From PVC group bacterium (GTDB lineage: Bacteria; GCA-001730085; JADFSZ01), in assembly GCA_022560555.1 (NCBI GenBank), contig JADFSZ010000002.1:3843-35842 (forward strand): DNA of 32,000 nucleotides. The letters run 5' to 3'. Positions 17,201-32,000 of the stretch are shown here, one piece after another (position 1 is the first letter of the stretch; every line of letters starts with the position of its first letter). The translations under genes were made by a program, and so were the position numbers. Below the pieces are notes generated by a model. It saw only the letters and a list, made by a program, of their open reading frames with translations. It searched no databases and was not told the origin of the DNA.

Positions 17201-17791
17201 TTGCCCGGAAGAAATCGTAAATGTTTTGTTTGCGTTAAACGTGACATTATTGAATACGGCACTGCCCGGACTGATCGTGAGGTTATTCGTATCAAATTCC
17301 ACGGTCCCCGAATTATGTGTAAACGTTCCGGAAGAAAACGTAAAAGCTTTAGCACAAAACATTGTCCCGGACGTGGATGTAAAACTAGCACCGTTCACAG
17401 TGAATGTTCCGTTCACATCAATCGTGGAGGACCCTCCGGTAAATGTTCCGCCCGTAAAAGCGGCATTCCCTGTTCCGACGGTAAAGCTGTTCGCCCCTTG
17501 AGAAAGCGTTGTTGTGTTCCCGCTTTGCATGTCGAGGCCTCTCACATTGACCGTTTGATCAACAGTGCAGATTCCTCCGCCGGAGCTGCCGTCAAAAAAC
17601 GCCTTATCCGACGACCCGGGTACGGATTGATTTCCCGCCCCTCCGGACATGTTTGACCAATGCGCGGTGTCCGACCAATTCCCGGTCCCTCCGATCCAAT
17701 AGCGATTCGCGGCCCATGACTCGCGCGGACAAAACGCAATAACCAAAAAGACAAAAAGAAAAACCTTTTTTGAAAAAAACCCTTTTATCAT
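14207..17791 (-). CDS. 1194-aa secreted beta-helix-like / Ig-like repeat protein (candidate exoprotein or adhesin)
   Basis: Sec signal peptide MIKGFFSKKVFLFVFLVIAFCPRESWA/A. Residues about 30-508 are G/T/S/N-rich short repeats (GGTFTGGSSTIDVNGTFTVNGASFTSTSGT..). Residues about 648-1180 form five units of roughly 105 aa that share xFTxTVTAxD..G....NYxGTxxxTV. I see no recognisable C-terminal anchor or sorting signal. Confidence 0.7.
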   Translation of the reverse strand: MIKGFFSKKVFLFVFLVIAFCPRESWAANRYWIGGTGNWSDTAHWSNMSGGAGNQSVPGSSDKAFFDGSSGGGICTVDQTVNVRGLDMQSGNTTTLSQGANSFTVGTGNAAFTGGTFTGGSSTIDVNGTFTVNGASFTSTSGTMFCAKAFTFSSGTFTHNSGTVEFDTNNLTISPGSAVFNNVTFNANKTFTISSGQTLTVNGTLNLTDGTVNTGTLGSKGAINLATTFDGGSATLDISGTSAQTFTGGGSASTGECPAVNINKSSGTLTLASIIRTGSDWTYTQGTVDAGSSTVVFADNNLNITGSMSFNHLTFDSGGGNKTVTIGAGTTLTITGTLSLTNYTINGGTLAPEGNVTVGASADGGTTSLSLTATGDQTITGNSGGDFQDNLTINKSSGTVTLTGTCTGIQNITVTAGTLDFDGGFTYTIDNADTVSVASGAAINFTGSSGSLVTLKSDQNNSAWTLNVNTGATYQADFVDVKDSNATGQDIFATNSTDSGGNTNWFFVPGTLTSTDVEPDSLSAGAEGLVTISFTTANVIPINGLIVIDFPSGFNGTGSDTVSSASGIDGSFSVATSNGDGTNDVITITRSGGTKVSSSTAVSFQINSITNPSSAGSTGTYSIKTQTLGGSITIDQDTAVSADIIIDAISQIVFTTSPQTLVQNQISSVITVQTQNSSGDAVNVSSDTVLDLTSSSAQGTFSDNSSFATTITQITISSGQSTAEFYYRDSQVGTPTLTASENPSQGWTDATQQFTISTNVNSFSVTVSSPQIAGTNFTITITALDNTGGVFTGYSGTANMTVSFVSPDSGLATLGVTSTSAFVEGVATLTNQTFSDCGTITITATDASDPTVTGITGNILFVPFDFTVVGTELDDTASALHTVNKPFTLTVTARNAAGVPCPNYLGSTTLTVNTISPAADQSGALNTTTLSSTNWTNGVAVITDMIYDKWGTITITSTDTTLTTQTGISVEITFIPKDLLLTLSAIPAFRTYFYIDEEFSAIVTARDFNDASISNYQGTVTFAGDDLALPDDYTFTAVDAGIHLFETSAGSDEIETTLTVTDTVHTTVTGDSEAITIKQGTIQVISTSGPVGTVSVNVQLLDANGEILLQDSATIFIIVLEEFLADNASATSPAETIAVSVSQGKATIAVTDDEAETVTVTPTSDPILIPQDGTVQFGTVSRTGVGVQLYREIP

Positions 17792-19587: not shown

Positions 19588-19986
19588 CTAAATCGCGGTG
19601 TATTGGATTTGCACCGTTCTTTGGACGCGGTTAAATTCTCCCGTTGCCGTGATAGTCGCGTTTTGAAAATCGTGTTCAGCCCAAAAATAACCTTGATCCA
19701 ATTCGGTTTTCACAATATTGCCGGTTCCGTTATGATCAAGATCCGTGTCGTATCTCAATTCCCAAATGGATTTCGCAATCCCCGCTTCCGCGAGATACAA
19801 AGCCCGAAGCCGATCAAATTGCATCTGCGAATAAAGAATGCGGGAATACAGTATCGCCACAAGAGCCGTTCCTAAAAGCGCGAGAAACGTTAATATAATA
19901 ATCGTCGTAAGCAAAATCACCCCCCGGTTTCGGAGCGTATGTCCGTTGCGACAAAGCCGGGTTTTACCATTCCAATGGAATCTCAC
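19588..19986 (-). CDS. PilX_N / GspK-like minor pseudopilin-like protein
   Basis: The hydrophobic N-terminus RNRGVILLTTIIILTFLALLGTALVAI resembles the PilX N-terminal domain. The track start at 20112 is a TTG inside the upstream pilin gene. The only plausible start is the GTG at 19986, so the start is uncertain. Confidence 0.45.
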   Translation of the reverse strand: MRFHWNGKTRLCRNGHTLRNRGVILLTTIIILTFLALLGTALVAILYSRILYSQMQFDRLRALYLAEAGIAKSIWELRYDTDLDHNGTGNIVKTELDQGYFWAEHDFQNATITATGEFNRVQRTVQIQYTAI

Positions 19987-20446
19987 CTTTAATATCTCCC
20001 CATGTGTCGTCCAGAGGCTGATCGATATTAATAAACACGTCGGCCTTATCCGTATAATACACCCATCCGCCGTTGCGCTTTCCCGGACGATCTTTTGATT
20101 TAAGATCGACAAACAGGGAACTGCCGGATTTGGCGCTCATCATTTCCAGAGGAAGTTTTTTCAGATACGGTTTTTCGATCCCCGCGTCCGTGTAGGTTTT
20201 CTCTAAAAGATCATTCAAGCTCTTCGGATAATATCCTTCTTTGGCGCGAAAGAGCATGATGCGGGTACGCAGTGTGTCCAGATTGGCTTTGGACGCGGCT
20301 ACGCGGGCCTCTGTGTCAAACCCGATAAAATTCGGAATCATGGTCGCGGCTAAAATGGCAATGATCGAAATCACGATCAAAAGTTCAATCAATGTAAATC
20401 CCCGACGGCCAGCGGGGGAATATTTAAGAAATGTTCGTCTCATCAT
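19964..20446 (-). CDS. GspG-like major pseudopilin (prepilin-type N-terminal domain)
   Basis: Motif RRG/FTLIELLIVISIIAILAATMIPNF, then ASKANLDTLRTRIMLFRAKEGYYPKSLNDL, typical of T2SS GspG-type pilins. An AAGGAG SD lies upstream. Confidence 0.8.
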   Translation of the reverse strand: MMRRTFLKYSPAGRRGFTLIELLIVISIIAILAATMIPNFIGFDTEARVAASKANLDTLRTRIMLFRAKEGYYPKSLNDLLEKTYTDAGIEKPYLKKLPLEMMSAKSGSSLFVDLKSKDRPGKRNGGWVYYTDKADVFINIDQPLDDTWGDIKGEIPLEW

Positions 20447-20496
20447 TCTTCTCCTTATTTCTTTTAACGAAACAGTTTTTTCAATAAAACAGTTTT

Positions 20497-21720
20497 TTAA
20501 TGAAATAATTTAATCAAATTAAAAATCGGCATCAAAATAGATAGAGCAATAAAAGCCACGACCCCACCCATCACGAGGAGCAAGGCCGGTTCTAAAATGG
20601 TGGCCATATTTTTCAGCGCGTACTCAACTTCCCGATCATAGAAGGTGGCTGCTTCCTGGAGCATTTGATCCAATGATCCGCTTTTCTCGCCCATAACAAC
20701 CATCTGTGTAACAGCCTGAGGAAAAATGCCGCTGGTGATCAAAGGTTCGCTCAATGGGGCGCCTTCTGAAATCGCGAAACGGATCCCTTCCATTTTTTTC
20801 GCGATAAACTGATTCCCGGCGACTTTCTCAACCGTCATGAGGGCTTCCGTGATAGGAACACCCGTATGGAGCAAAACTCCCAGGGTTCGTGTCACACGCG
20901 CAACGATCCCTTTCAATTGTAACGATCCAAAAAGAGGTATTTTCAAAATCCAAGTATCCACACGCAAGCGCCCATGGGCGGTTTTGATATACCGTTTGAT
21001 CCATAAGACCGCCAAGATTACGGCCGCGATCGCGCCAAACCAAAATCGTCGAAAAAAGAGGCTTGCCCCAAGCAAAAATTGCGTGGACAAAGGCAGATCT
21101 GTATCATACGCTTCAAAAATGACCGTGAATTTTGGAACCGTATTGACCAAAAGGAACCCGACGATACCGATTGCGGCCAGAGCTAAAAACACCGGATAGG
21201 TCATAGCCGTCCGGATTCGGATCTTAAACTCATATTCACGCGCGTACATGTCCGCCGTTCTTTCCAAAACATCATCCAGGATTCCGCCGGTTTCTCCAAC
21301 ACGGACCATACTCACGAACAGATCCGTAAAAATATCCGGATGTTTCCTCAAGGACTCCGAAAAGGAGTCTCCTCCTTCTAAATCTCTCGCGACTTTGCCG
21401 AGAGTTTTCTTCAATTTTCGATTCTTGGTTTGCTCTTCTAAGCTTTTAACGGCACTCACTATGGGAATTCCGGCTTTTATGAGGGCTGCGAGCTGCCGGG
21501 TTAAAAAAACAATCTCGGTTTTATGAGACTGGGTCAGGATCTGATAGACATCGTTCCACCACTCTTTCAGACCTCTTTGTTTTGTTTGGAGGGAGATGAC
21601 GCTGTACCCCAAAGAACGCAGCCTCACGGCCGCGGCCATATCATCCTGGGCTTCAATTGTTGATGAGAACATTTCTCCGTCCTTATCACGGACTTTGTAA
21701 AAAAAGAGAGGCATTGTCAA
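20497..21720 (-). CDS. GspF/PilC-family inner-membrane platform protein
   Basis: 407 aa. N-terminus FFYKVRDKDGEMFSSTIEAQDDMAAAVRLRSLGYSVISL, two T2SSF repeats and three TM segments. There is a 4-nt overlap with the secretin stop. Confidence 0.9.
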   Translation of the reverse strand: MTMPLFFYKVRDKDGEMFSSTIEAQDDMAAAVRLRSLGYSVISLQTKQRGLKEWWNDVYQILTQSHKTEIVFLTRQLAALIKAGIPIVSAVKSLEEQTKNRKLKKTLGKVARDLEGGDSFSESLRKHPDIFTDLFVSMVRVGETGGILDDVLERTADMYAREYEFKIRIRTAMTYPVFLALAAIGIVGFLLVNTVPKFTVIFEAYDTDLPLSTQFLLGASLFFRRFWFGAIAAVILAVLWIKRYIKTAHGRLRVDTWILKIPLFGSLQLKGIVARVTRTLGVLLHTGVPITEALMTVEKVAGNQFIAKKMEGIRFAISEGAPLSEPLITSGIFPQAVTQMVVMGEKSGSLDQMLQEAATFYDREVEYALKNMATILEPALLLVMGGVVAFIALSILMPIFNLIKLFH

Positions 21721-23372
21721 GCCCCTCTTCGTCTTTTCATGAATTTACGGTTTTTGGAAAGGATTTTTTTATCGATCTGTTTTAACAATTTTTTGGCTTT
21801 CCTGATCAGAGAAGACTCCGGATATTCATGAATGAGTTCGACCAACATGGCTTGCGCGGCCACCAGATCATCAAAATATTTATAGGCTAAGTTCCCGCCG
21901 CGAAAGAGGGCTTCCGGTGTTTTCTCGCTTTGGGGATATATGGACACGATCTTTTGATATCGCCTGAGGGCAAGAACCATCCGGTCCCGTCGATCTTTAT
22001 TACGCGAAATGATCCCGCGCCCTTTTTCCAAATCGGCAGCCTCTTGCCACAATTGATGCACCAGAACCTGTTCACCGGTTTCTTTAATTTGAACAAAAAC
22101 CTCCCGGGGAATTTCCGGGCGCTGGTTTCCCGGTGAATCCCTATACTTGATTATCGTTGGGGTGATAAACACGACCAATTCCGTTGACGTCGTGTCACTA
22201 CTTCTGTGCCGAAAGAGTCGTCCCAGGATCGGAATGCTTCCCAGGATCGGAATTTTTCCCTTAATGCTATCCTCCTGGCGCTTAATGAGACCTCCGATGA
22301 CAATCGTCTCTCCGTCTTTCACAACAATCGTGGCATCCGCTTCCCGGGTGGCCACACGCGGACCGGCCTCCAACTCTGCGGTTAAGGATGAAACCTCGGG
22401 ATGAACGTACATTGTGATCCAGCCGTCGGGAGAGACCCAGGGCGTCACTCTCAGTGTGGTTCCGATATCGACAAATTTTGTTGTTTCCGTTGTTCCGGTT
22501 GTCGTTTGAGTTTTCTCTTTATAGGGAAACCGTTCTCCGATAATGATCCGGGCTTCTTTTCCGCTGAGAGTCATAATGGAGGGTGATGCCAAAAGATGGG
22601 CTTTATTATCTCTGATCAAGGCATCAATCGTGGCCGTGGCGGTGATTCCTTTTGTTGCAAAGGACGTTAATTTGAGTTGACCGCCGGAAAGGGTTGAGGA
22701 AGGGCCTGCCATATCTCCGCTTCCTCCCAAATCAAAAAACCGGCTTTGAACGGTCCAGCTAAAGCCTGCGTTTCGACTATCTTGCTCGGTGATGTCAATC
22801 AATCTGGCTTCGATCAGGACTTGAATCGGCGGTGTATCCAATTCCTCCAGGGTTTTTCGTAAATTCTCGATGTACGCCGGATAATCCGTGACCACAAGCG
22901 TGTTGTTCGCTTCATTCACCCGAATCTTTCCAAGAGAAGACAGTCCATCCGTTAAGAGACGGCTCGCGTCATGCGCGTTTAAATAGTTCAGGACTACGGT
23001 TTCTGTTGTCACACGCACACCGTCGACTCCAGGGCTCGGCGTGATGTAAATCAGATTTCCTTTTTTGATATAGGTGTATCCATTAATGCTTAAGATCACC
23101 TGAAGAGCTTCTTCGACCGTCACATTTGTCAACGGGAAAGACACGGTCCCCTCAATATTTTTGGGGGCCACCAAATTTAAGTTGTACGAATAGGCAAGCG
23201 ATCTTAAAACGCTGGTAAGAGACGCGTCCTGAAAATCGAGCGTGATCAATTCTTGATCCATTTCATGGCTGATGGTGTCCTCCGTTGCTAGCACCACCCC
23301 TGCGGGGGGCATCATGGAGAGGAGCAAGACCAAACACATCATCTTGCCTAAGGGTATTATGCGTGCCGACAT
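21717..23372 (-). CDS. secretin (GspD/PilQ/MshL family) with a 141-aa C-terminal TPR-like extension
   Basis: The ATG at 23372 is preceded by AAGGAG; the track start at 23417 is TTG. The protein has a signal peptide, an N0-like domain (ITLDFQDASLTSVLRSLA..EEALQVILSINGYTY) and a secretin core ending GKIPILGSIPILGRLFRHRSSDTTSTELVVFITPTII. An extra tail follows, with RRYQKIVSIYPQSEKTPEALFRGGNLAY..LVELIHEYPESSLIRKAKKLL. Confidence 0.85.
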   Translation of the reverse strand: MSARIIPLGKMMCLVLLLSMMPPAGVVLATEDTISHEMDQELITLDFQDASLTSVLRSLAYSYNLNLVAPKNIEGTVSFPLTNVTVEEALQVILSINGYTYIKKGNLIYITPSPGVDGVRVTTETVVLNYLNAHDASRLLTDGLSSLGKIRVNEANNTLVVTDYPAYIENLRKTLEELDTPPIQVLIEARLIDITEQDSRNAGFSWTVQSRFFDLGGSGDMAGPSSTLSGGQLKLTSFATKGITATATIDALIRDNKAHLLASPSIMTLSGKEARIIIGERFPYKEKTQTTTGTTETTKFVDIGTTLRVTPWVSPDGWITMYVHPEVSSLTAELEAGPRVATREADATIVVKDGETIVIGGLIKRQEDSIKGKIPILGSIPILGRLFRHRSSDTTSTELVVFITPTIIKYRDSPGNQRPEIPREVFVQIKETGEQVLVHQLWQEAADLEKGRGIISRNKDRRDRMVLALRRYQKIVSIYPQSEKTPEALFRGGNLAYKYFDDLVAAQAMLVELIHEYPESSLIRKAKKLLKQIDKKILSKNRKFMKRRRGA

Positions 23373-23391
23373 ATGTGTCTCCTTTTTCGTA

Positions 23392-24279
23392 TTATTCCGG
23401 ACGATACGATAAAACAATATCTGAGATACCGTCCGTTAAAACGATTTGGTTCCGAGTAATTTTTTTAATCGTTTTTTTATCGATGGCGTCTCCCACACGG
23501 TACACCCGGCCATTAATAATCACTGTGGGATTTTTTCCCGTTGGGATCACCCCGCTGATATGATATGTTTCTTCCTGCCCGGAAACCGCTTTTGGAGACG
23601 GCCCCTGGATGTCGCTCACGAGCGGATTTCGACTCATTTGAATTTCAGGAATATCTTGAACTTCTGCGGGGCCTTGATCTTTTATGGCTTCTCCTAACAA
23701 CGTAGACAGTGTCAGTTTGATTTCGGCTCTACCTTGAAAGCCGTTCTCCATTTTTTCCATAACCATTTCATTCGGTTTCAAGAATTGTGATAAAGCTTCC
23801 AGGCGATAAAGATAGTTCACAAGGCCCGGATAATCCGCATGAAATATCATCTCCACATCCAGACGGGAATATTCTTCCAACGGATCACCCAGTTTGGGTT
23901 TAATGGAAATCAAATCAATCGGGTATCCCTCGGCTTGGCGGGCTATTTGACCCAAAATTTGCGGAATGCTGCCCTGCCGGGGCAGCTCGGCCTCTACATC
24001 GGCTAACTCGGACATAAGCCATTTGTACCGTTCTTGATCCGCTTGAAGGGCCTCTTCTTCTTTTTGAACATTCGGGGTCTCGCTTTGAATCCTGATCCTT
24101 TGATTGTCCAATTGAAGTGCGTGGGCTTTCAAGTCCCTGAGGACGGCTGCTCGCGGTTTATAAGAAAACCGGACATAGGCGCTAAAGATAATCACAAGCG
24201 CTAAAAGGCCCAGAAGCATTTTTCTCTGCAGGGTCTGCGCGTGAAATCCTTCGATAAGCTTATGTGTTTTTTTTGTCAC
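23392..24279 (-). CDS. PilO-like protein fused to a PilP/GspC-HR-like C-terminal domain
   Basis: 295 aa. A TM helix and coiled coil are followed by a PilO-like core (LPRQGSIPQILGQIARQAEGYPIDLISIKP..ADYPGLVNYLYRLEAL). After a linker comes YHISGVIPTGKNPTVIINGRVYRVGDAIDKKTIKKITRNQIVLTDG. Confidence 0.6.
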   Translation of the reverse strand: MTKKTHKLIEGFHAQTLQRKMLLGLLALVIIFSAYVRFSYKPRAAVLRDLKAHALQLDNQRIRIQSETPNVQKEEEALQADQERYKWLMSELADVEAELPRQGSIPQILGQIARQAEGYPIDLISIKPKLGDPLEEYSRLDVEMIFHADYPGLVNYLYRLEALSQFLKPNEMVMEKMENGFQGRAEIKLTLSTLLGEAIKDQGPAEVQDIPEIQMSRNPLVSDIQGPSPKAVSGQEETYHISGVIPTGKNPTVIINGRVYRVGDAIDKKTIKKITRNQIVLTDGISDIVLSYRPE

Positions 24280-24866
24280 AATGCCCCGGTTGACATCAAT
24301 ATATGCGTTGTTACCTCAAAATTAATAAGAGGTCTTCCGTCCAAATCGGTTTTTTCGGTATAGTTAAAACCCGTGCGTTCAAAAGTAACTGAAGTATCCA
24401 GGCGCTCCATAAACTGACTCACTTTGATATTGTCCAGCGTTGTGCCGATAATGGTGATCTGGTTTTGATCCAGCATCATTTTATCGATCCATAAATCCGA
24501 CGGAACATATTCAGAGAGGGTTTTTAAAACTTCAGAAAAATCGATCTGACGGCTTCGGGACATTCGAATGACTCTCAATTTTCCTTCAAGACGCTTACTA
24601 TTCTCCCGGATCCGTTTTCTTTGCTCCTCGGCTTTAGTTACGGCGCTTTGTTGTTCGATCAGATTTGCTTCATCATTTTGTATGGCTTTTTGCTGCCGGG
24701 GGATGCGGATACGCAGGCTCATTATCCACAGGGACTGCCCCAGAAAGACAAGCCCCATGATGACAAAAACACTGATCACACCAAACCATATGCGATTTTT
24801 CGGCAAAGTCCGCCATTCGGCTTGTTTTTTTGAAACGCTCCTCGTTATGAGATTGATCCGTCTCAT
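24276..24866 (-). CDS. PilN-like assembly protein
   Basis: 196 aa. The N-terminal MRRINLI motif is followed by a TM helix, a coiled coil and a ferredoxin-like C-terminal part. It has 4-nt overlaps with both neighbouring genes. Confidence 0.7.
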   Translation of the reverse strand: MRRINLITRSVSKKQAEWRTLPKNRIWFGVISVFVIMGLVFLGQSLWIMSLRIRIPRQQKAIQNDEANLIEQQSAVTKAEEQRKRIRENSKRLEGKLRVIRMSRSRQIDFSEVLKTLSEYVPSDLWIDKMMLDQNQITIIGTTLDNIKVSQFMERLDTSVTFERTGFNYTEKTDLDGRPLINFEVTTHILMSTGAL

Positions 24867-26095
24867 TCTTCTAAGCCTCTTAGGGCCAAACCCAAGGCCA
24901 CATTGAAGGCCCCTCCTGTCGGAATCCCCATTTGCCCGGCCATCAAATCTCCCAAAGGATCGGCAAGTGTAACAGGAACGTTAAGACGCGAAGTTAAAAA
25001 GGGGACAAAACCCTTGAGAGACGAGGCCCCTCCACAGACAATAACGCGGTTATATTTCGTGATCTGCGACCGTGTGATCTGAAACGAAAAATGCTTAAAC
25101 GTATGTTCGATGTCTTGAACAAGATGTTCCAAATGAGAAAGAATCGCGTTCCGCACCTGAGTCGCATGATTTGTCATTTCCGGAGCCTGATCATCCAAAG
25201 TTTGATCCCCGGTACCGATGGAAATGCCATGCTCACGTTTTAAGAGTTCGGCCTCTTCCCAGCTGGTTTGACAGTATTGACTGATGGCTTTGGTTAAAAA
25301 GTTTCCCGTGATGTTTAAGCTCCTCACAGAAATCAGTTCTTTGTTGCTAATAATTCCAACCGTTGTTTGTCCCGCGCCAAAATCAAGGTAAAGCACAACT
25401 TCCTGCTCGTGAAGATAGCCATTACCATAGCTTAAAGCTGCCACATCCGAAAGAGCCTCGACATCAGTCGCGAGGGTTTCCAGGCCGACGGATTTCAAAA
25501 GGCCGAGTTGTTCGTGAACAACTTTTCTTTGGGTCACGATCACCAGGAATCCGACGTCATTGTCAAACAAATCCCGGCTTTGCTTCTCAAGAACAAGATA
25601 GTCATAGGTGATTTCATCGGGATTCCGGCGAAACTGTTGTTGGATTTCCCAGTACATGGCTTTGTCCACTTCCTGGGGTGGAATTCTGGGAAGTTTGATA
25701 AGATCCAGTTTGCAGGCTGAGATGGGCACATGTGTGAAACAAGCGTCTTTCAAATTTATGCTTTTGCTGATCTTTCTGAGGATTTCCGATATATAGATCG
25801 CTTTTTGGTCGGGATGCTCTCGCACGGACGAGGGAAAATCTTCAGTTAGGGCATGGATCACACGTATTCGTCCCTCGCTTTCAAGGCCTAGCTGAACAAT
25901 TTTGAGGGAATGTGTTCCTATATCGAGTCCGAAGGGATATCGTTTGCTGATCAGGATCTGAGGGCTCGGGATCTTTGGCTCTTCAACATTTTGACGCCCT
26001 TTTTGATCAAAGAGGCGGGACGCCTTTTTTTTGGACGGACGTGAAAAGACTGTTTGAACAATATCCGGATTATGAGATGGTTTCGATTCCGGCAC
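24863..26095 (-). CDS. PilM-like actin-fold assembly protein with an N-terminal extension
   Basis: The signature FGLDIGTHSLKIVQL and an ASKHA fold run throughout. The track start at 26167 is TTG. I prefer the GTG at 26095, preceded by GGAG at 7-nt spacing. Either start overlaps the 3-prime end of the ParA-like gene. Confidence 0.75.
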   Translation of the reverse strand: MPESKPSHNPDIVQTVFSRPSKKKASRLFDQKGRQNVEEPKIPSPQILISKRYPFGLDIGTHSLKIVQLGLESEGRIRVIHALTEDFPSSVREHPDQKAIYISEILRKISKSINLKDACFTHVPISACKLDLIKLPRIPPQEVDKAMYWEIQQQFRRNPDEITYDYLVLEKQSRDLFDNDVGFLVIVTQRKVVHEQLGLLKSVGLETLATDVEALSDVAALSYGNGYLHEQEVVLYLDFGAGQTTVGIISNKELISVRSLNITGNFLTKAISQYCQTSWEEAELLKREHGISIGTGDQTLDDQAPEMTNHATQVRNAILSHLEHLVQDIEHTFKHFSFQITRSQITKYNRVIVCGGASSLKGFVPFLTSRLNVPVTLADPLGDLMAGQMGIPTGGAFNVALGLALRGLEE

Positions 26096-27035
26096 CAAGG
26101 CTCTCCGATACGGGTAAGTGATTAACGTTTTGAGAACACTGAGGGTCTTTTGCAAGAGTGCGTTCAATGACCTCCTGGGTCAGGGCCCAATAATCTTTGG
26201 CCCCTTGGGATGTCCGGGCATATAGATGAATGGGCTTTTTATAAATCGGGGCTTCACAGAGTTTGACATTGTAATGAATAGGGGTCCGGAAAACCAAGTC
26301 CTTGAAGTAGTTTTGAATTTGATCTAACACGCGGTGGCTGACCTTGGTTCTTTTATCAAAGAGTGTCGCGAGGATCCCGAGAATCTTCACGTCAAAATTG
26401 AGCCGTTCTTTCACAATATCGATGGTGGAAAACAGCTCTTTCATCCCCTCTAAAGAATAATAATGCGTTTGGACGGGGATAATCACGTAATCGGCCGCGA
26501 CGATGGCATTCAGGGTCACGAGATTCAGACTCGGGGAGCAATCGATTAGTGTATATTGGTATTTTTTACGAAGGCGCAATTTGTGAATCGCGATCCTGAG
26601 GATGGATTCTCTTCCCAGGACTGTTGCCAGCTCTAATTGAGCATCGGCGAGAGAGACGTTGGCCGAAGCGATATCCAGATTTTTGACGGATGTTTTTTGA
26701 ATCACATCTTCAAGTCCCGCATTGTTGATCAGCACATCATACGTTGATTTTTCTGTCTGTTCGATGTCGACCCCGAGGCCAAGCGACGCGTGGGCCTGAG
26801 CATCAAGATCAATCAGGAGAACCCGGTATCCTTTCTCGGCCAGACAAGACGAGAGATTGATAGCCGTCGTTGTTTTGCTGCATCCTCCTTTTTGATTACA
26901 GATGGCGATGCAAATTTGTTGAGTTGTCGATATAGGGACATCATTTTTGGAATTCAATGAGGTGGGCTGGTTTTGGACACGTTCTTCTTTCAGGGCTTTA
27001 TCTCGCGAAAAACTATTTTTGAATTGATCAAACAT
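26070..27035 (-). CDS. ParA/MinD-family P-loop ATPase, first gene of the pilus/secretion operon
   Basis: 321 aa. The ATG at 27035 is preceded by AGAGGGGG. It has the deviant Walker A CNQKGGCSKTTTAINLS, plus LLIDLDAQA and YTLIDCSPSL. About 40 aa of unique N-terminal extension and about 25 aa of C-terminal tail are present. Confidence 0.85.
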   Translation of the reverse strand: MFDQFKNSFSRDKALKEERVQNQPTSLNSKNDVPISTTQQICIAICNQKGGCSKTTTAINLSSCLAEKGYRVLLIDLDAQAHASLGLGVDIEQTEKSTYDVLINNAGLEDVIQKTSVKNLDIASANVSLADAQLELATVLGRESILRIAIHKLRLRKKYQYTLIDCSPSLNLVTLNAIVAADYVIIPVQTHYYSLEGMKELFSTIDIVKERLNFDVKILGILATLFDKRTKVSHRVLDQIQNYFKDLVFRTPIHYNVKLCEAPIYKKPIHLYARTSQGAKDYWALTQEVIERTLAKDPQCSQNVNHLPVSESLGAGIETIS

Positions 27036-27434: not shown

Positions 27435-27806
27435 TTAGCTCCCGCCAACGTTTTTCACGGCGTCTAAAAGAGGTTCGTAATCCGATGTTTTAACACAATA
27501 GTCATTCGCGCCCATTTTCTTGGCCTTAACCGCGTCCACAGCATCGACAGCCCCTGTCATAATGATGATCTTGGGAGTGTCCGGACCAAAATGTTCCCGG
27601 ATTTGACGGCAGACCTCGAATCCGTCAATTCCGGGAAGCATGGTATCCGACACAACAATGTCGGGGTTCTCAACTTTAGCTTTTGCGACTCCCTCTTCTC
27701 CCGATTCCGCAAAAACAACGTCTTCATAGCCGGATTTCTTAAGATACCGTCCTATAATTTTACGGTCTTGGTCGTTATCTTCAATAACTAAAATCTTTGT
27801 GCTCAT
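27435..27806 (-). CDS. stand-alone response regulator (receiver domain only)
   Basis: The ATG at 27806 is preceded by GGAGGAGGG; the track start at 27833 is GTG. Sequence: MSTKILVIEDNDQD..DIVVSDTMLPGIDGFEV..KIIIMTGA..GANDYCVKT. Confidence 0.85.
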   Translation of the reverse strand: MSTKILVIEDNDQDRKIIGRYLKKSGYEDVVFAESGEEGVAKAKVENPDIVVSDTMLPGIDGFEVCRQIREHFGPDTPKIIIMTGAVDAVDAVKAKKMGANDYCVKTSDYEPLLDAVKNVGGS

Positions 27807-27833
27807 ATTTCCCTCCTCCCCTGCAGACCCCAC

Positions 27834-28310
27834 TTACAATGAATTTTCTCTATCAGGCAACTGGTTCATGACATTCCAATAATAATTAAATCCGTCCACA
27901 AACCGCACAAAAGCTTCATAACTCACAGGCTTGGGGATATATCCCGCCGCTCCGTAATTGTAGCTGTTATTAATATCATTGGCGTCTTTCGATGTTGTAA
28001 ACATAATAACGGGAATCATACTAACCTTAGGATCACTTTTCAGTGTTTTAAGCACTTGAATCCCGTCCATCTTCGGCATATTGATATCCAGCAAAATGAG
28101 ATCGGGGCGAGGGTACGCGGCCGGATCCGTGTACGGAGGCCGGTGATAGATAAAATCCAAAGCCGCTTGTCCGTCTTTGACAAAGGTAAATTGATTTTGA
28201 TACTTCGCTTTGGCAAACGCTCTCTGTGCTATTTTGATATCCGCCTCGGTATCTTCAACGAGCAGGATCTTGAGAGATTTGCCCCACTCCTCATGGTCTT
28301 CATGAATCAT
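27834..28310 (-). CDS. stand-alone response regulator (receiver domain only)
   Basis: 158 aa. The ATG is preceded by GGAAGGAG. Sequence: KILLVEDTEADIKIA..PDLILLDINMPKMDGIQVLK..IPVIMFTTS..GAAGYIPKPVSYEAF. There is no output domain. Confidence 0.85.
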   Translation of the reverse strand: MIHEDHEEWGKSLKILLVEDTEADIKIAQRAFAKAKYQNQFTFVKDGQAALDFIYHRPPYTDPAAYPRPDLILLDINMPKMDGIQVLKTLKSDPKVSMIPVIMFTTSKDANDINNSYNYGAAGYIPKPVSYEAFVRFVDGFNYYWNVMNQLPDRENSL

Positions 28311-28338: not shown

Positions 28339-30348
28339 TCACACTTCCTGGCTTTTCTGCTTGTCCAGTTCTTGGTTAAGAACATCTTGAGAAACAAATC
28401 CGTCTTCGACAAGGATTTCACCGATTTTCTTTTTCTCTTTCAGCTCTTTCGGGATCGTAAACACGAATGTCGCACCTTGGCCCACAACGGATTCAATCCA
28501 AATACGCCCGTGATGATCTTCGATCACTTTTTTGACTATTCCCAGGCCCGCTCCCGTTCCTTCGTATTCCGCGTTGGAGTGAAGGCGTTTAAACATCCCA
28601 AAAATTTGGTCATGGTATTTCGGATCAATGCCGATCCCATTGTCTTTAACAAAAAATTTATGGTTATCAGCTTCAGACACATATCCCACTTCCACGCGAG
28701 GGTGATCCGGATTGTCTTTGGATGAAAATTTGATCCCATTGTTGATCAAATTCAGGAAAACTTCCGTCATTTTGATACGATCACAGCAGACAACAGGAAT
28801 ATTTGGAGGAATCACCATCTCGACCTTGTGTTCTTTGATATCAAATTCTATACGCTTTAAAACAGCTTCTAATAGTTCATTGATATTAACGTCTTCAAAC
28901 GGATTTTGAATACGTGAAATGCGTGACAGCGCCAAAAGATCATCAATTAATTGGTTCATTCTGTTCACACCGCCGATGATTTCCTGGATATGATCCCGCC
29001 CCTCGTCATCCAGCTTGTCCCGGTAATCTTCTTCCAAAAACTTGGCAAACGAGGCAATTCCCCGTAAAGGAGCTCTCAAGTCATGGCTGGCGGTGTATGT
29101 AAAACTATCCAGCTCTTTATTAACTTTTTCCAGCATGCCTTTTTGACTTTCGAGTTCCGCCCTTTTTTGCTCAATATTTTTATTAGCCTCCACCAAATTG
29201 TCCGTCATCTGATTAAAAGCGAGCGCCAGTTCTCCGATTTCGTCCTGGCCATACACGGCGGCCCGTGCGGAAAGATTGCCTTCGGCAATGGACGCGGAGA
29301 CATCCGTTAGAGCGCGAATGGGACGCGATATCGTGCGGGCAATCACAATCGCGATAACAACAACGGCGCACATGAGAAGTATGCTGATGTTCATCAATTT
29401 CTTTCTGAGTTGATTGGCGGACGAAAAAACTTCTTTTGTGTCCATTTTAACAATGAGTCCCCATCGAAAACTAGGAATGTACCGGCTGACGAACAGAACT
29501 TCTTCTTGGCGATAATCCAGGGCTCGTCCAACATCTCTATTTGAAGTAGATCTTTTTTTGAGGCTGGAAGCCTCAAACGAATTTTTTTTGACCGAACGGA
29601 CAAAAGCGGCATTTTTATCAAATCGGAGCGGGGTCGCGAAAACCACGTTATCGCCTGAATGTGCCATGATCATCGTTCCGCCCGTGTTCCCCAGGCTGGA
29701 GTAATCTTTGACAAGTTCGCTTATGCCCGCGTTATTCATTTTGACAATCAAAACACCGATCAGCTCGGCGCCTTTCAAGATGGGCGCGGAAATAAAAAGG
29801 GCGGCCTTCTCGGTATTATAATCATATTCGAAATCCGAAATTTCTGTCTTGGATGATTCTTTTGCCCGGATAAAAACCTTCGTCAATTCGGATTCTTCAT
29901 AAAGCGCGATTTCGTAAATAGAGCTGATGGAAAGGCGTTCAACGGAAAATACAATTTCGCCGCGCGGACGGATCAGGTACAAATCTTCAAATTCCGATGT
30001 TTTTTTGTAGTACGTCAAAAAGGGGCGATACTCTTTCTTTATATCTTGGAAGGCTTCAGGATTCGCAACTTTATCTTCAAACGCCGCGCTCAACTCCTCC
30101 ATGGCTTCGATAATGTCCGACGTATGAGAGAGATTCGTAACGGCCCGCTCTTTTTCCCGCAGATAAAACTCAATTTGATTGGTTTTGTTATCAGCGACCG
30201 CGACCAAGCTATTGGTGACCTCAGTTTCAAGAACTTTTTTAGATGTGTTATAGCTGATGTTGATCGCAACAGCCATCGGCACAAGCGCGATGACCAAGAA
30301 AGACAATACAAACTTCGTCGTGATGGGGAGATTATTAAAAAAGGTCAT
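28339..30348 (-). CDS. membrane sensor histidine kinase (double-Cache-like periplasmic domain, HAMP, HisKA, HATPase_c) with a C-terminal MshEN-like tail
   Basis: 669 aa. Two TM helices flank a periplasmic domain of about 290 aa. HAMP is SRPIRALTDVSASIAEGNL..DEIGELALAFNQM, the H-box is SFTYTASHDLRAPLRGI, and N/G boxes are present. The last 38 aa are KELKEKKKIGEILVEDGFVSQDVLNQELDKQKSQEV. Confidence 0.9.
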   Translation of the reverse strand: MTFFNNLPITTKFVLSFLVIALVPMAVAINISYNTSKKVLETEVTNSLVAVADNKTNQIEFYLREKERAVTNLSHTSDIIEAMEELSAAFEDKVANPEAFQDIKKEYRPFLTYYKKTSEFEDLYLIRPRGEIVFSVERLSISSIYEIALYEESELTKVFIRAKESSKTEISDFEYDYNTEKAALFISAPILKGAELIGVLIVKMNNAGISELVKDYSSLGNTGGTMIMAHSGDNVVFATPLRFDKNAAFVRSVKKNSFEASSLKKRSTSNRDVGRALDYRQEEVLFVSRYIPSFRWGLIVKMDTKEVFSSANQLRKKLMNISILLMCAVVVIAIVIARTISRPIRALTDVSASIAEGNLSARAAVYGQDEIGELALAFNQMTDNLVEANKNIEQKRAELESQKGMLEKVNKELDSFTYTASHDLRAPLRGIASFAKFLEEDYRDKLDDEGRDHIQEIIGGVNRMNQLIDDLLALSRISRIQNPFEDVNINELLEAVLKRIEFDIKEHKVEMVIPPNIPVVCCDRIKMTEVFLNLINNGIKFSSKDNPDHPRVEVGYVSEADNHKFFVKDNGIGIDPKYHDQIFGMFKRLHSNAEYEGTGAGLGIVKKVIEDHHGRIWIESVVGQGATFVFTIPKELKEKKKIGEILVEDGFVSQDVLNQELDKQKSQEV

Positions 30349-31877
30349 AGTTTATTTTTTGCCTGCACTTTACACTGATCAATATGTTCAAAAAATTCTT
30401 CGACATCTATCACATCATCCGGATATGTCAGCCATTGAAATTCCAAATTAATATTTTGTATGCCATTTTCTTTTTCCTCTTGTTGTATCCAAGCCGATCT
30501 TAAACGTTTTTCAATTTTTACGGCTTGGTCTTTATCACAATATAAAAGGGCAATCACGATCTTGCCATGAAGCGTTATCACCGTATCCTTAACTTGTCTC
30601 AATGCGTAGTTAAGCGTGCTTTCAGCTTTCTTTAGGAGGTCCGTCTTTGTCAGGGTGGAAGCCGCCTCTTTTCCGCCAGGACCCTTCAAGGAGATAATGG
30701 TCAAGGAAACTTGAGTGCCTTTTTTCTGGGCATCTTCGATCGCTTGCGTCAATATTTCTTTGAGAAACGACTCCGGAGTGTATTTCGGCAGAGTAAAAAC
30801 AAATTGTGTTCCTTTGCCGTATTCGCTCTCGACCCAAATGCGTCCCTTATGAAGCTCAACAATGCCTTTGGCAATCGAAAGCCCCAACCCCGTTCCTTTT
30901 TCTCCGGCACCGTGTTTACGACCAAACTGCTGGAACTTGCTGAACACTTTTGTTAAATCTTCTTCGGTAATTCCCATTCCGGTATCACTGACTTGGCATT
31001 CAAATTCGTCGTCTTTTTCGAGCACAGAGATTTCAATAGAGCCTTCGTGTGTAAATTTGAGCGCGTTGTTAATCAAGTTCATAAAAACTTGGATTAATTT
31101 ATCATGATCGGAATAGATGCGGATCTCATGAGTTGGCAGAGTGGATTTCAGGGTTAATCCTTTTTTTTCCACCTTAAATTGAAGCGAAGTAATGATCTGA
31201 TGAATCAGGGATTTTAAATCAATGAGCTCACGTTTAAGTTCGATCTGGCCGGCTTCAATCTTGGAGATATCCAAGAGATTGTTAATAATCCGTGTCAGAC
31301 GGTCAACATCTTCTTTGCAAATATTCAAAAATTCGCGTTGATTTTCCGTTGTCGGTCCCAAAATCCCTTCGGCGATTTGCGAAACGGTTTCACGGATGGT
31401 GGTGAGAGGGGTCCGAAGCTCATGAGAAACCGTTGATATAAAGTCGGATTTCATTTGATCAAGTTTTTGCAGTTCTTTATTTTTTTTCTCCAGTTCTTTA
31501 TATAAAAGCTTAATGGCGTCATTTGTTTTTTTCATCCCCCATATCTGCAAATCAAGATCTTCTTTCGTCTGATGCAAATCCTGTAAAATCCGCCCCACAA
31601 ACCGCCCCAAGGCCAGTGAACTGTTTTGAGCCAACTGAGCATCTTGGATCCACTGATCGTCTTTTTGTTCCAATCCAACCATGAGATCAAAATTCAGGTT
31701 TTTGTCCCAATCATTTGTACCATGAAAGCAAGGGATTTTGAGGGCCTCGGATATTTCTTTGGACTCCGCCGATTGATCCGTATCCACGATGGCACAAAGC
31801 AAAGGATTTTCCTGTTTTTTTAGGAAATCGGCCATCTTTTTTAACGGTTTGCCGGATCCAACCAAAACAATATGCAT
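30345..31877 (-). CDS. cytoplasmic histidine kinase with an unknown N-terminal module and a C-terminal degenerate GGDEF-like domain
   Basis: The H-box is DFISTVSHELRTPLTTI, and HATPase_c carries DTGMGI and GTGLGLSIAKGIVELH. There is no TM segment. I prefer the ATG at 31877, preceded by AAGGAG; the track start at 31958 is TTG. There is a 4-nt ATGA overlap with the downstream kinase. Confidence 0.8.
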   Translation of the reverse strand: MHIVLVGSGKPLKKMADFLKKQENPLLCAIVDTDQSAESKEISEALKIPCFHGTNDWDKNLNFDLMVGLEQKDDQWIQDAQLAQNSSLALGRFVGRILQDLHQTKEDLDLQIWGMKKTNDAIKLLYKELEKKNKELQKLDQMKSDFISTVSHELRTPLTTIRETVSQIAEGILGPTTENQREFLNICKEDVDRLTRIINNLLDISKIEAGQIELKRELIDLKSLIHQIITSLQFKVEKKGLTLKSTLPTHEIRIYSDHDKLIQVFMNLINNALKFTHEGSIEISVLEKDDEFECQVSDTGMGITEEDLTKVFSKFQQFGRKHGAGEKGTGLGLSIAKGIVELHKGRIWVESEYGKGTQFVFTLPKYTPESFLKEILTQAIEDAQKKGTQVSLTIISLKGPGGKEAASTLTKTDLLKKAESTLNYALRQVKDTVITLHGKIVIALLYCDKDQAVKIEKRLRSAWIQQEEKENGIQNINLEFQWLTYPDDVIDVEEFFEHIDQCKVQAKNKL

Positions 31878-32000
31878 TTTTTCCGTGCTCCTTATATGAT
31901 TGCATGTTCCCAATGGCTCATGTCCTTTCATGCCGCGGGTTTCCCCTTGAACATCCAAGAGACAAACTGTCTCACTTTAATATAAATATATATAACAGAA

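What the first reader, a model, noticed from the sequence alone, without database searches (positions are those of the whole stretch)
28357..28431. Histidine kinase ends in a single 24-residue MshEN-type (c-di-GMP receptor) motif that mirrors the N-terminus of the operon ATPase
Seen: after the HATPase_c domain the kinase terminates with KKIGEILVEDGFVSQDVLNQELDKQ-KSQEV. Aligned to the ATPase N-terminus GLIGEILVEQGIITQVQLDEVLREQK, I count 13 identical residues out of 26. Established: the MshEN c-di-GMP-binding motif is RLGxx(L/V/I)(L/V/I)xxG(L/V/I)(L/V/I)xxxxLxxxLxxQ. The kinase tail fits every fixed position with K for R, I for L and F/V at the hydrophobic pair. MshEN normally occurs as two tandem motifs at the N-terminus of GspE/PilB/MshE ATPases. 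A lone motif appended to the C-terminus of a sensor kinase is not an architecture I know. Inference: the tail could make kinase output c-di-GMP-responsive. Alternatively it could pair in trans with another half-motif, including that of the ATPase.
Basis: partly seen in the sequence, partly recalled or inferred. Interest (0 to 1): 0.7.

Follow-up and report, generated by a model that had tools for sequence, protein, structure and literature searches.

The report
Kinase tail carries half c-di-GMP site
A membrane sensor kinase of an uncultured Omnitrophota bacterium ends in one conserved copy of a 24-residue motif that normally works in pairs to bind the bacterial messenger c-di-GMP, which suggests, without yet proving, that two kinase subunits together form one messenger-binding site.

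Summary
The dCache-HAMP-HisKA-HATPase_c kinase (window 28339..30348, minus strand) ends, 7 residues after its ATP-binding domain, in KIGEILVEDGFVSQDVLNQELDKQ (28357..28428). This is the only perfect match in the window to the published relaxed MshEN motif.

A profile of 44 such tails finds significant matches among solved structures only in the c-di-GMP-binding motifs of MshE, PilB and PilF. The tail sits at the same position in 43 of 120 orthologous Omnitrophota kinases. These are scattered over the whole family tree, and the ligand-contacting Gly, Leu and Gln residues are invariant or nearly so. One orthologue duplicated the unit into a full two-motif domain that models onto c-di-GMP-bound MshE.

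The likeness to the operon ATPase is only family resemblance. PF05157 cannot test the motif, because it does not cover that subdomain.

In MshE each guanine touches residues of both motifs, so one copy cannot bind alone. The most likely mechanism (inferred) is that tails of two kinase subunits pair into one site. c-di-GMP binding is untested, and 64% of orthologues lack the tail.

I found no description of this architecture: a new variant of a known receptor.

The parts
28357..28428 (-). Single MshEN-type 24-residue motif (one alpha-hairpin, 'alpha-clip' unit), aa 641-664: KIGEILVEDGFVSQDVLNQELDKQ
   Evidence: 11/11 match to the relaxed motif. 49.8 bits against the tail HMM. The tail-family profile hits the c-di-GMP motifs of 5HTL, 5TSG and 6F8L. 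hhalign 98.3%.
28429..28449 (-). Lys-rich 7-residue linker KELKEKK (aa 634-640) between the HATPase_c end and the motif. It corresponds to the basic patch that precedes motif I in MshE.
   Evidence: The gap between the catalytic-domain end and the motif is 7-9 aa in 41 of the 43 orthologue tails and 11 at most. Lys at the position before the motif is at least 90% conserved. The basic patch K5/R7/K8/R9 of MshE is described in PMC5013675.
28339..28356 (-). Last five residues KSQEV plus the stop codon; there is no second motif
28339..30348 (-). Sensor histidine kinase, 669 aa: TM - dCache_1 - TM - HAMP - HisKA - HATPase_c - tail
   Evidence: Pfam hits. The H-box His422 and the N and G box residues are invariant in 62 orthologues.
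28444..28782 (-). HATPase_c (ATP-binding, CA) domain, aa 523-635, to which the tail is tethered
   Evidence: Pfam PF02518, E = 3e-24
28915..29109 (-). HisKA dimerisation and phosphoacceptor domain, aa 414-478. It is the basis for expecting a homodimer.
   Evidence: Pfam PF00512, E = 7e-15. That HisKA kinases are homodimers is established knowledge.
17838..19544 (-). PilB/GspE-type ATPase of the pilus operon, with a complete two-motif MshEN_N at its N-terminus
   Evidence: Pfam T2SSE, and MshEN at aa 59-144. Motifs found. 120 homologues keep both motifs, mostly 29 residues apart.
19458..19529 (-). ATPase motif I: LIGEILVEQGIITQVQLDEVLREQ
   Evidence: 10/11; 24.7 bits
19371..19442 (-). ATPase motif II: KIGEIIVRNQFATEEDIAKILSDQ
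   Evidence: 10/11; 12.9 bits
27435..28310 (-). Two single-domain response regulators directly downstream of the kinase (27834..28310 and 27435..27833), the likely phosphotransfer partners
   Evidence: Pfam Response_reg. The same kinase-REC-REC order is seen in L003 and L004; L001 has kinase-REC and then the second kinase.
30345..31958 (-). Upstream second kinase: HisKA-HATPase_c with a degenerate GGDEF-like C-terminal domain; a conserved neighbour
   Evidence: Pfam GGDEF E = 2e-4. No GG(D/E)EF signature, and no RxxD motif in the window copy. Present in L001, L003 and L004.
19964..27035 (-). Type IV pilus / T2SS-like assembly genes between kinase cassette and ATPase: AAA_31 (ParA-like), PilM, PilN, PilO, secretin, PilC/GspF, pseudopilin
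   Evidence: Pfam

Best explanation
The tail is one alpha-hairpin unit, that is, half of an MshEN_N c-di-GMP-binding four-helix bundle, fused by a 7-residue Lys-rich linker to the ATP-binding domain of a classical HisKA sensor kinase.

Shown here:
- It is homologous to the experimentally defined c-di-GMP motifs of MshE, PilB and PilF.
- It is under purifying selection in a large part of an Omnitrophota kinase family.
- It keeps the residues that contact the ligand in MshE.
- It is single.

Inferred:
- In MshE each guanine is held by residues of both motifs, so one tail cannot form a site.
- HisKA kinases are homodimers, so two tails (within a dimer, or between neighbouring dimers) could pair into a symmetric bundle that binds one c-di-GMP.
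- Binding would tie the two ATP-binding domains together through their short linkers and shift the kinase/phosphatase balance.
- This would pass the cellular c-di-GMP level to the two downstream response regulators and so to the adjacent pilus genes.
For: Homology:
- The tail-family profile's significant, full-motif PDB matches are the c-di-GMP motifs of PilF 6F8L (2e-18), PilB 5TSG/5ZFR (1e-11) and MshE 5HTL aa 7-33 (34.4 bits). The remaining entries listed at E <= 0.001 are one flagellin chain with no stretch passing threshold and further PilF/PilB domain constructs.
- hhalign against an MshEN_N profile gives 98.3%.

Selection:
- 43 of 120 orthologues (51-61% identical overall) carry one motif 7-11 aa after the catalytic domain, 7-9 aa in 41 of them.
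- Tail-bearing sequences occur in all major clades of an NJ tree built on the core only.
- Mean column identity is 66% in the tail against 59% for the whole protein.

Ligand residues:
- Motif positions 6, 21 and 24 (Leu, Leu, Gln) are invariant, and Gly3, Gly10 and Leu17 are at least 90% conserved.
- In MshE these are the Gly whose backbone amide reads guanine O6/N7, the Leu residues that stack on guanine, and the Gln that H-bonds ribose and phosphate. An invariant surface Gln is hard to explain by folding alone.

Need for a partner: Gua1 is sandwiched by Arg9, Leu25 and Leu29 plus Leu39 of motif II, and Gua2 by Leu54 and Leu58 plus Leu10 of motif I.

Natural experiment:
- Orthologue P0033 duplicated an 84-nt unit (leader plus motif; 79% nt identity, 16/24 aa) into a tandem pair.
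- The pair aligns colinearly with ATPase MshEN_N domains.
- It models at pLDDT 86 and superposes on c-di-GMP-bound MshE 5HTL at TM 0.85, rmsd 0.9 A.

Precedent for a half-site that works by homodimerising: single-motif RsiG (PMC8325347).

Context: the kinase lies in a cassette next to pilus genes with other c-di-GMP modules, namely MshEN ATPases, PilZ and a GGDEF-like domain.
Against: - There are no binding data of any kind.
- 77 of 120 orthologues lack the tail yet keep the same gene neighbourhood, so it is dispensable.
- Motif position 1 is Lys in 39 of 44 tails, not the Arg that stacks on guanine in MshE. Lys is allowed in the published relaxed motif, and the charged-residue changes tested earlier in MshE, Arg9 among them, altered affinity less than fivefold.
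- Whether two CA-domain C-termini of one kinase dimer can come close enough for 7-residue linkers to let the tails pair was not testable here.
- No multimer prediction was possible.
- The P0033 model used an alignment of true MshEN_N domains, so it shows compatibility rather than giving independent proof.
- No active diguanylate cyclase is encoded in the window; the neighbouring GGDEF-like domain lacks the GG(D/E)EF signature.
Confidence: 0.45

Rival explanations
1. The hairpin is a docking module that pairs with a hairpin on a different protein or with pilus-motor components. It would place the kinase at the pilus machine or recruit a partner, with or without c-di-GMP bridging the two halves.
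For: [quoted passage not shown]
- Motifs that are unpaired in sequence exist elsewhere. P0187 has four single motifs separated by GAF domains.
- The kinase is encoded beside a pilus operon.
Against: - No other half-motif is found in the 32-kb window.
- The operon ATPase already has two motifs. In orthologous loci the ATPase motifs are degenerate whether or not the kinase has the tail.
- The residues conserved in the tail are the ligand-contacting ones, including the invariant Gln.
Confidence: 0.22
2. The hairpin folds back in cis onto the kinase's own catalytic or DHp domain as an autoregulatory lid. It has kept the MshEN-like sequence for folding and packing only and binds no nucleotide.
For: - The short 7-residue tether keeps the hairpin close to the CA domain.
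- The conserved hydrophobic face of a lone hairpin must be buried against something.
- Many MshEN domains are known to have lost c-di-GMP binding, for example XpsE.
Against: - An invariant Gln at position 24, near-invariant Gly3 and a basic leader are features of ligand binding rather than packing.
- Non-binding MshEN domains typically lose exactly these residues, as the neighbouring ATPases in L003 and L005 did, whereas the tails did not.
- The P0033 duplication makes a self-contained bundle, which is hard to reconcile with a cis-docking role.
Confidence: 0.15
3. The tail is a decaying remnant of an ancestral complete C-terminal MshEN_N domain, or of a gene fusion, and has no present function.
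For: - 64% of orthologues lack it.
- Some show eroded versions (P0016, P0027, P0034, P0059).
- Its distribution on the tree is patchy.
Against: - It is retained with 66% mean column identity and invariant key residues across deep branches whose cores are only 51-61% identical.
- There is no trace of a second motif after it in any single-motif orthologue.
- Where function seems to have been lost, the sequence decays quickly.
Confidence: 0.08
4. The similarity is due to chance in a Lys/Glu/Leu-rich helical tail.
For: - The region is short.
- Lys- and Glu-rich helical tails are common at the C-termini of the tail-less orthologues.
Against: - It is the only 11/11 match in the window.
- About 2 unrelated 11/11 matches were found per 10^6 residues scanned.
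- Profile hits go specifically to c-di-GMP motifs.
- It is conserved in 43 orthologues.
Confidence: 0.01

Closest known systems
MshEN_N c-di-GMP-binding subdomain of MshE/PilB/PilF ATPases (V. cholerae MshE, PDB 5HTL; Wang et al. 2016, PMC5013675)
   Same: The same 24-residue helix-turn-helix motif, with all fixed Gly, hydrophobic and Gln positions and a basic leader. There is profile-level homology. A duplicated version in P0033 models onto 5HTL.
   Different: One motif instead of two tandem motifs joined by about 5 residues. It lies at the extreme C-terminus of a HisKA sensor kinase instead of the N-terminus of an ATPase. There is no MshEN_C subdomain. Position 1 is Lys rather than Arg.
CheA with an internal MshEN_N domain (Aeromonas veronii CheA, Suppl. 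Table 4 of PMC5013675; P0189 here)
   Same: A histidine kinase combined with MshEN-type motifs.
   Different: CheA-class kinase (Hpt, H-kinase_dim, CheW). It has complete two-motif domains placed between Hpt and the dimerisation domain, not a single motif after the ATP-binding domain of a membrane-bound HisKA kinase.
NfrB-type glycosyltransferases with a C-terminal MshEN domain (E. coli NfrB; PMC8669469, PMC5013675)
   Same: The MshEN module sits C-terminal to an enzyme domain whose output it controls (P0130).
   Different: NfrB has a complete MshEN domain. The enzyme is a glycosyltransferase, not a kinase.
Single-motif RsiG anti-sigma factors (Rubrobacter; PMC8325347)
   Same: A half-site for c-di-GMP that becomes functional by homodimerisation. 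Twin-motif relatives arose by intragenic duplication, which parallels P0033.
   Different: An unrelated fold and motif (coiled coil, E(X)3S(X)2R(X)3Q(X)3D). It binds a c-di-GMP dimer. This is an analogy of mechanism, not homology.
Histidine kinases that bind c-di-GMP through other modules: CckA (site on the CA domain) and SgmT (degenerate GGDEF I-site; PMC3509222)
   Same: c-di-GMP acts directly on a sensor kinase. In CckA it switches kinase to phosphatase (own knowledge: Lori et al. 2015).
   Different: Different binding determinants; neither uses an MshEN-type motif.
alpha-clip units of PATAN (DUF4388, PF14332) domains
   Same: The same two-antiparallel-helix repeat unit. PF14332 weakly matches the motif region of the window ATPase and of multi-motif proteins.
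   Different: PATAN carries two units inserted in a larger domain and acts by binding PilB and PilC. The kinase tail gave no PF14332 hit.

Membership tests
MshEN_N c-di-GMP-binding domain (Wang et al. 2016) | 24-residue motif RLGxx(L/V/I)(L/V/I)xxG(L/V/I)(L/V/I)xxxxLxxxLxxQ, or its relaxed search form [RKPN]hGxxhhxx[GAS]hhxxxxhxxxhxx[QNKRYWST] | tested here: met
   The relaxed form is matched 11/11. The strict form is met except for K in place of R at position 1, I in place of L at position 2 and F at position 11. 31 of 44 family tails match the relaxed form fully, and all 44 score at least 9/11.
MshEN_N c-di-GMP-binding domain (Wang et al. 2016) | Two tandem motifs joined by about 5 residues, forming a 53-residue four-helix bundle | tested here: not met
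   There is one motif only in the window kinase and in 43 orthologues. Nothing else in the protein or the window matches. Only orthologue P0033 has two. The tail is therefore a half-domain, not a member in the full sense.
MshEN_N c-di-GMP-binding domain (Wang et al. 2016) | Sequence-profile homology to motifs whose c-di-GMP complexes are solved | tested here: met
   hmmsearch of the tail profile against PDB sequences: 6F8L 2e-18, 5TSG 1e-11, 5HTL 5e-9, with aligned regions that are the binding motifs. hhalign 98.3%.
MshEN_N c-di-GMP-binding domain (Wang et al. 2016) | Four-helix-bundle fold superposable on MshE | tested here: inconclusive
   Testable only for the duplicated tail of P0033: pLDDT 86, TM 0.85 and rmsd 0.9 A to 5HTL. 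However, the alignment used was made of true MshEN_N domains and the Foldseek E-value is only 0.03 because the model is small. The single-sequence model was poor, pLDDT 54. A dimer of single tails could not be modelled.
MshEN_N c-di-GMP-binding domain (Wang et al. 2016) | Specific binding of c-di-GMP at nanomolar to micromolar affinity | not testable with these tools
   Needs DRaCALA, ITC or MST on purified protein.
Pfam PF05157 (MshEN / T2SSE_N) | Match to the Pfam model above its gathering score | tested here: not met
   The kinase and its last 53 aa give no hit at E <= 1. This says little, because in the window ATPase the model covers aa 59-144 (MshEN_C) and not the motifs at aa 6-58.
HisKA-type two-component sensor histidine kinase | HisKA domain with the phosphoacceptor His, plus HATPase_c with N, G1 and G2 boxes | tested here: met
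   Pfam HisKA 7e-15 and HATPase_c 3e-24. H422, N533/N537, D569/G573 and G597/G599/G601 are invariant in 62 orthologues.
HisKA-type two-component sensor histidine kinase | Homodimer through the HAMP and DHp helices | not tested
   Assumed from established knowledge of the HAMP and HisKA families; no multimer modelling was available.

The most novel reading that the evidence does not exclude
The kinase is a split c-di-GMP receptor. Each subunit contributes one half of an MshEN-type site, so ligand binding and the arrangement of the two ATP-binding domains (or the clustering of kinase dimers) depend on each other. This would be the first MshEN-type site assembled across a subunit interface. It would also be the first classical membrane sensor kinase gated directly by this receptor type, combining an external signal (dCache) with the internal c-di-GMP level to control a pilus system in Omnitrophota.
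Probability: 0.4. Interest if true: 0.7.

Novelty: new variant of a known kind. Interest (0 to 1): 0.55.

Why it matters
c-di-GMP receptors are hard to recognise from sequence, and many bacteria have too few known receptors for their signalling enzymes. A conserved half-site that standard domain models do not detect (Pfam reports nothing for the tail) would mean that current censuses miss receptors built from single alpha-hairpin units.

If two tails pair across a kinase dimer, this gives a simple and testable way for a second messenger to set the kinase/phosphatase balance of a two-component system. It would also add a second example, after RsiG, of how symmetric ligand sites evolve by homodimerisation and internal duplication; orthologue P0033 shows the duplication step.

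It would also give a first handle on the regulation of pilus systems in Omnitrophota, a phylum known here only from metagenome-assembled and single-cell genomes.

Tried and rejected
The model does not cover the motif subdomain even in the ATPase, so this is not evidence against the finding.
- A homologue search with the last 75 aa, meant to find tails on other kinase families, returned only 5 short fragments and was uninformative.
- An exhaustive profile search of 1.84 billion representatives with the tail profile gave 9225 hits at E <= 0.001. The 150 listed all carry several motif copies (2-14 by my regex count, 3-12 matched stretches by HMMER) and none has kinase boxes. It shows that the motif is widespread, mostly in pairs 28-31 residues apart. 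It cannot count single-motif kinases.
- The genome scan returned 13 full-length orthologues, 3 of them with the tail, and 67 other kinases, none with it. This sample is small.
- The single-sequence AlphaFold model of the P0033 tail had low confidence, pLDDT 54, and was not used.
- Local synthesis of c-di-GMP by the neighbouring kinase-GGDEF protein is rejected. That domain lacks GG(D/E)EF in all four copies examined, and RxxD in three of the four, including the window copy.
- A special relation between the tail and the operon ATPase is rejected.
- Literature searches for a single or half MshEN motif found nothing. The library does not include most subscription journals.
- Not attempted: the correlation of tail presence with PilZ or cyclase genes across genomes, because too few long loci were available.
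Full report
**What is in the sequence**

The minus-strand ORF at 28339..30348 encodes a 669-aa membrane sensor kinase. Pfam finds dCache_1 (aa 40-300), HAMP (335-386), HisKA (414-478) and HATPase_c (523-635).

After the last strand of the ATP-binding domain (...ATFVFTIPK) come three elements:
- a Lys-rich 7-residue linker, KELKEKK;
- the 24 residues KIGEILVEDGFVSQDVLNQELDKQ (aa 641-664, window 28357..28428);
- five more residues and the stop codon.

The next gene starts 28 bp later. BLASTP gives 13/30 identities and E = 4e-6 for the single comparison, plus a second weaker hit to the ATPase's second motif.

**Is it more than chance?**

I scanned all six frames of the window with the relaxed motif that Wang et al. 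used for their own census, [RKPN]hGxxhhxx[GAS]hhxxxxhxxxhxx[QNKRYWST] (PMC5013675).
- The kinase tail is the only 11/11 match. The two motifs at the ATPase N-terminus score 10/11.
- In about 973,000 residues of six-frame ORFs from 84 other loci, 11/11 matches were the orthologous kinase tails and only two unrelated segments.
- An HMM built from 44 tails scores the window tail 49.8 bits, ATPase motif I 24.7 bits and motif II 12.9 bits. Nothing else in the window scores above 3 bits.

There is therefore exactly one copy in the kinase and no hidden partner half-motif within 32 kb.

**Is it an MshEN-type motif?**

In the operon ATPase it matches aa 59-144, the MshEN_C subdomain, and not the c-di-GMP-binding motifs at aa 6-58. 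This test therefore cannot decide the question.

I instead aligned the tails of the window protein and 43 orthologues (alignment A1) and searched all PDB sequences with the profile. The significant full-motif matches are the c-di-GMP-binding motifs of:
- T. thermophilus PilF (6F8L, 2e-18);
- Geobacter PilB (5TSG and 5ZFR, about 1e-11);
- V. cholerae MshE (5HTL, aa 7-33, 34.4 bits for that single motif);
- further PilF and PilB N-terminal domain constructs.

One flagellin chain is also listed (6B5B, 5.6e-7), but none of its matched stretches passes the threshold. Everything else lies above E = 0.001.

A profile-profile comparison with an alignment of two-motif MshEN_N domains gives 98.3% probability and E = 1.3e-14, aligned to motif I. 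The homology claim is therefore well supported.

**Conservation**

The kinase has many orthologues. All that carry a name are Candidatus Omnitrophota, and they are 51-61% identical to the window protein.
- Of the 120 listed, 43 have one motif starting 7-11 residues (7-9 in 41 of them) after the end of the catalytic domain.
- One (P0033) has two tandem motifs.
- 76 have short, unrelated acidic or Lys-rich ends. P0098 is a truncated partial sequence. A few look like eroded motifs: P0016, P0027, P0034 and P0059.

In a neighbour-joining tree built only from the core (aa 1-634), tail-bearing sequences occur in all major clades, with tail-less lineages nested among them. This fits an old feature that was lost repeatedly.

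Within the tails:
- motif positions 6, 21 and 24 (Leu, Leu, Gln) are invariant;
- Gly3, Gly10, Leu17 and the Lys before the motif are at least 90% conserved;
- mean column identity is 66%, against 59% for the whole protein.

In the MshE complex, Gly at position 3 gives a backbone amide to guanine O6/N7. The Leu residues at positions 17 and 21 stack on the base. The Gln at position 24 H-bonds the ribose 3'-OH and a phosphate. A basic patch precedes the motif. The tail family thus preserves exactly the ligand-contacting set. Position 1 is Lys in 39 of 44 tails and Arg in 3.

**Why a single copy is the point of interest**

In MshE the two motifs form a four-helix bundle, and each guanine is held by residues of both. 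Gua1 lies between Arg9, Leu25 and Leu29 and Leu39 of motif II. Gua2 lies on Leu54 and Leu58 and Leu10 of motif I. One hairpin cannot make a site.

In the exhaustive search of 1.84 billion representative proteins, the tail profile found 9225 proteins at E <= 0.001. In the 150 best, motifs come overwhelmingly in pairs 28-31 residues apart, with up to 14 copies per protein, and none shows kinase boxes.

The published list of MshEN architectures includes ATPases, REC, HD-GYP, CheA, CheX, cyclases, Ser/Thr kinase, glycosyltransferases, peptidase M23, TrxB and AAA_31. All of these carry complete domains. It has no HisKA/HATPase_c kinase with a C-terminal motif. Among 67 non-orthologous kinases fetched from reference genomes, none has the tail. 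Literature searches found no description of a single or half motif.

**A natural experiment**

Orthologue P0033 ends in ...KKIGEILIEDGFLTPQELDEGLKKQKTKKKIGQILIEDGSISNQELEKGLKEQ.
- The two units (4-residue leader plus motif, 84 nt) are 79% identical in DNA and 16/24 in protein. This is a lineage-specific tandem duplication of the family's own tail.
- The pair aligns colinearly with the MshEN_N domains of ATPases, with one gap in the linker.
- With that alignment AlphaFold2 gives four helices at pLDDT 86.
- Foldseek's best PDB matches are c-di-GMP-bound MshE (5HTL, TM 0.85-0.86, rmsd 0.9 A over 56-57 residues) and c-di-GMP-bound PilF GSPII-B.

The alignment consisted of real MshEN_N domains. The model therefore shows that two tail units are compatible with the fold; it is not an independent proof. 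The single-sequence model was poor, pLDDT 54.

**Relation to the operon ATPase**

The ATPase (17838..19544) has a complete pair of motifs, and 120 homologues keep both, mostly 29 residues apart.

The tail is not specially related to it.
- By my residue-by-residue comparison the tail is 12/24 identical to the ATPase's motif I and 11/24 to V. cholerae MshE motif I.
- The tail profile scores MshE higher (34.4 bits) than the ATPase (24.7 bits).
- In orthologous loci the neighbouring ATPase has degenerate motifs both where the kinase has the tail (L003, L005) and where it lacks it (L004, L008, L011).

'Mirror' therefore means shared family consensus. Pairing of the tail with an ATPase half-motif is not supported.

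**Context**

The kinase is followed by two single-domain response regulators and preceded by a second kinase with a degenerate GGDEF-like end. Downstream lie AAA_31/ParA-like, PilM, PilN, PilO, secretin, PilC, a pseudopilin, the ATPase, a 1194-aa surface-protein-like gene and minor pseudopilins.

The cassette dCache kinase, REC (two in L003 and L004, one in L001) and kinase-GGDEF-like recurs in those three loci. In L003 and L004 it is followed by further REC genes, an MshEN ATPase, T2SSF and pseudopilins, for a tail-bearing and a tail-less orthologue respectively. The tail-less locus L004 also has a PilZ gene, and L003 has a second ATPase with a PilZ domain. c-di-GMP modules are thus a recurrent theme around these pilus genes.

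**Most likely mechanism**

Shown: a conserved, single, ligand-residue-preserving half of an MshEN_N domain is tethered by 7 residues to the ATP-binding domain of a HisKA kinase.

Inferred:
- HisKA/HAMP kinases are homodimers (established knowledge), so two tails per dimer are available. They could pair into a truly symmetric version of the pseudo-symmetric MshEN_N bundle and bind one c-di-GMP.
- In a helical hairpin, helix 1 starts beside the end of helix 2. In MshEN_N a 5-residue linker leads from the end of helix 2 to the start of helix 3. The N-termini of the two hairpins therefore lie at the same end of the bundle.
- Pairing would pull the two CA domains towards each other through short linkers. 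This is a plausible way to change the kinase/phosphatase balance.
- Single-motif RsiG, which homodimerises to bind c-di-GMP and whose twin-motif relatives arose by internal duplication, is a direct precedent for the principle.
- CckA shows that c-di-GMP can switch a kinase to a phosphatase (own knowledge).

I put this explanation at about 0.45.

**Rival explanations**
- A docking hairpin for another protein or the pilus motor, about 0.22. PATAN alpha-clip units bind PilB and PilC, and P0187 carries isolated single motifs between GAF domains.
- A cis autoregulatory lid without ligand, about 0.15.
- A functionless remnant, about 0.08.
- Chance, about 0.01.

**Main weaknesses**
- There are no binding data.
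- Two thirds of orthologues do without the tail.
- Position 1 is Lys rather than Arg.
- The geometry of the CA C-termini is untested.
- No cyclase is encoded in the window.

**Verdict**

The 'mirror of the ATPase' and 'trans-pairing with the ATPase' ideas are not supported. c-di-GMP control of the kinase is plausible but untested.

I classify it as a new variant of a known kind: a half-dose of a known receptor module on a new host domain.

Noticed in passing
window 30345..31958 (-): The second kinase directly upstream (HisKA-HATPase_c) ends in a GGDEF-like domain (Pfam E = 2e-4) that lacks the GG(D/E)EF signature and an RxxD I-site. The same kinase accompanies the dCache kinase in L001, L003 and L004. 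Its role (receptor, or a protein-interaction domain?) is unknown.
   Followed up: partly
orthologues P0001, P0007, P0009, P0015, P0018, P0019, P0037, P0038, P0054, P0058 and others; also tail-less P0043 and P0057 (C-termini): Many orthologues have a second short conserved C-terminal motif, roughly PPEYKGE, 5-10 residues after the MshEN-type motif. In two cases it occurs without that motif. It is absent from the window protein, which ends KSQEV.
   Followed up: no
L002 635..3064 (protein P0119): One member of the same kinase family carries an N-terminal PF05157 MshEN domain with degenerate motifs, ahead of the first transmembrane segment, and has no C-terminal tail. The contig is only 3 kb long, so a misassembly cannot be excluded.
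   Followed up: partly
protein P0187 (610 aa, from the representative search): A GAF-domain protein has four isolated single motifs at aa 5, 194, 385 and 585, about 190 residues apart, the last at the extreme C-terminus (KLGHILIERGAIAEENLKKALKKQLE). This is another case of motifs that are unpaired in sequence; they may pair in three dimensions.
   Followed up: partly
proteins P0121-P0132 (from the representative search): Some proteins carry 6-14 copies of the motif in blocks of four, for example P0121 (1162 aa, with Hpt, TSP3 and dockerin hits). Arrays this large are not discussed in the MshEN papers I read.
   Followed up: no
window 17838..19544 (-), aa 6-58 against aa 59-144: The Pfam model named 'MshEN' (PF05157) does not cover the c-di-GMP-binding motifs. 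The motif region is weakly matched only by PF14332 (DUF4388/PATAN). Domain-based censuses will therefore miss proteins that have MshEN_N only, or a single motif.
   Followed up: yes
L003 15625..17355, L004 16268..17962, L005 16366..18090, L008 6212..7981, L011 15217..16926: The pilus ATPases next to orthologous kinases have degenerate motifs: Gly3, Leu21 or Gln24 is lost, or the whole RLG start is missing. The window ATPase family keeps both motifs. These are two different ATPase lineages with probably different c-di-GMP competence.
   Followed up: partly
window 8438..9562 (-) and 9598..10251 (-): Two adjacent ORFs (217 aa and 374 aa) look like the N- and C-terminal parts of one carbamoyltransferase-like protein. 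This may be a frameshift, a pseudogene or a sequencing error.
   Followed up: no
window 14207..17791 (-): A 1194-aa Thr/Ser/Gly-rich repetitive protein with a signal-peptide-like start lies inside the pilus operon, between the ATPase and the minor pseudopilins. It may be a pilus-associated adhesin.
   Followed up: no
window 17838..19544 (-) against the protein databases: The ATPase has a 98% identical database relative (P0276). The best relative of the kinase is only 61% identical, so the window organism itself is barely represented in public data.
   Followed up: no
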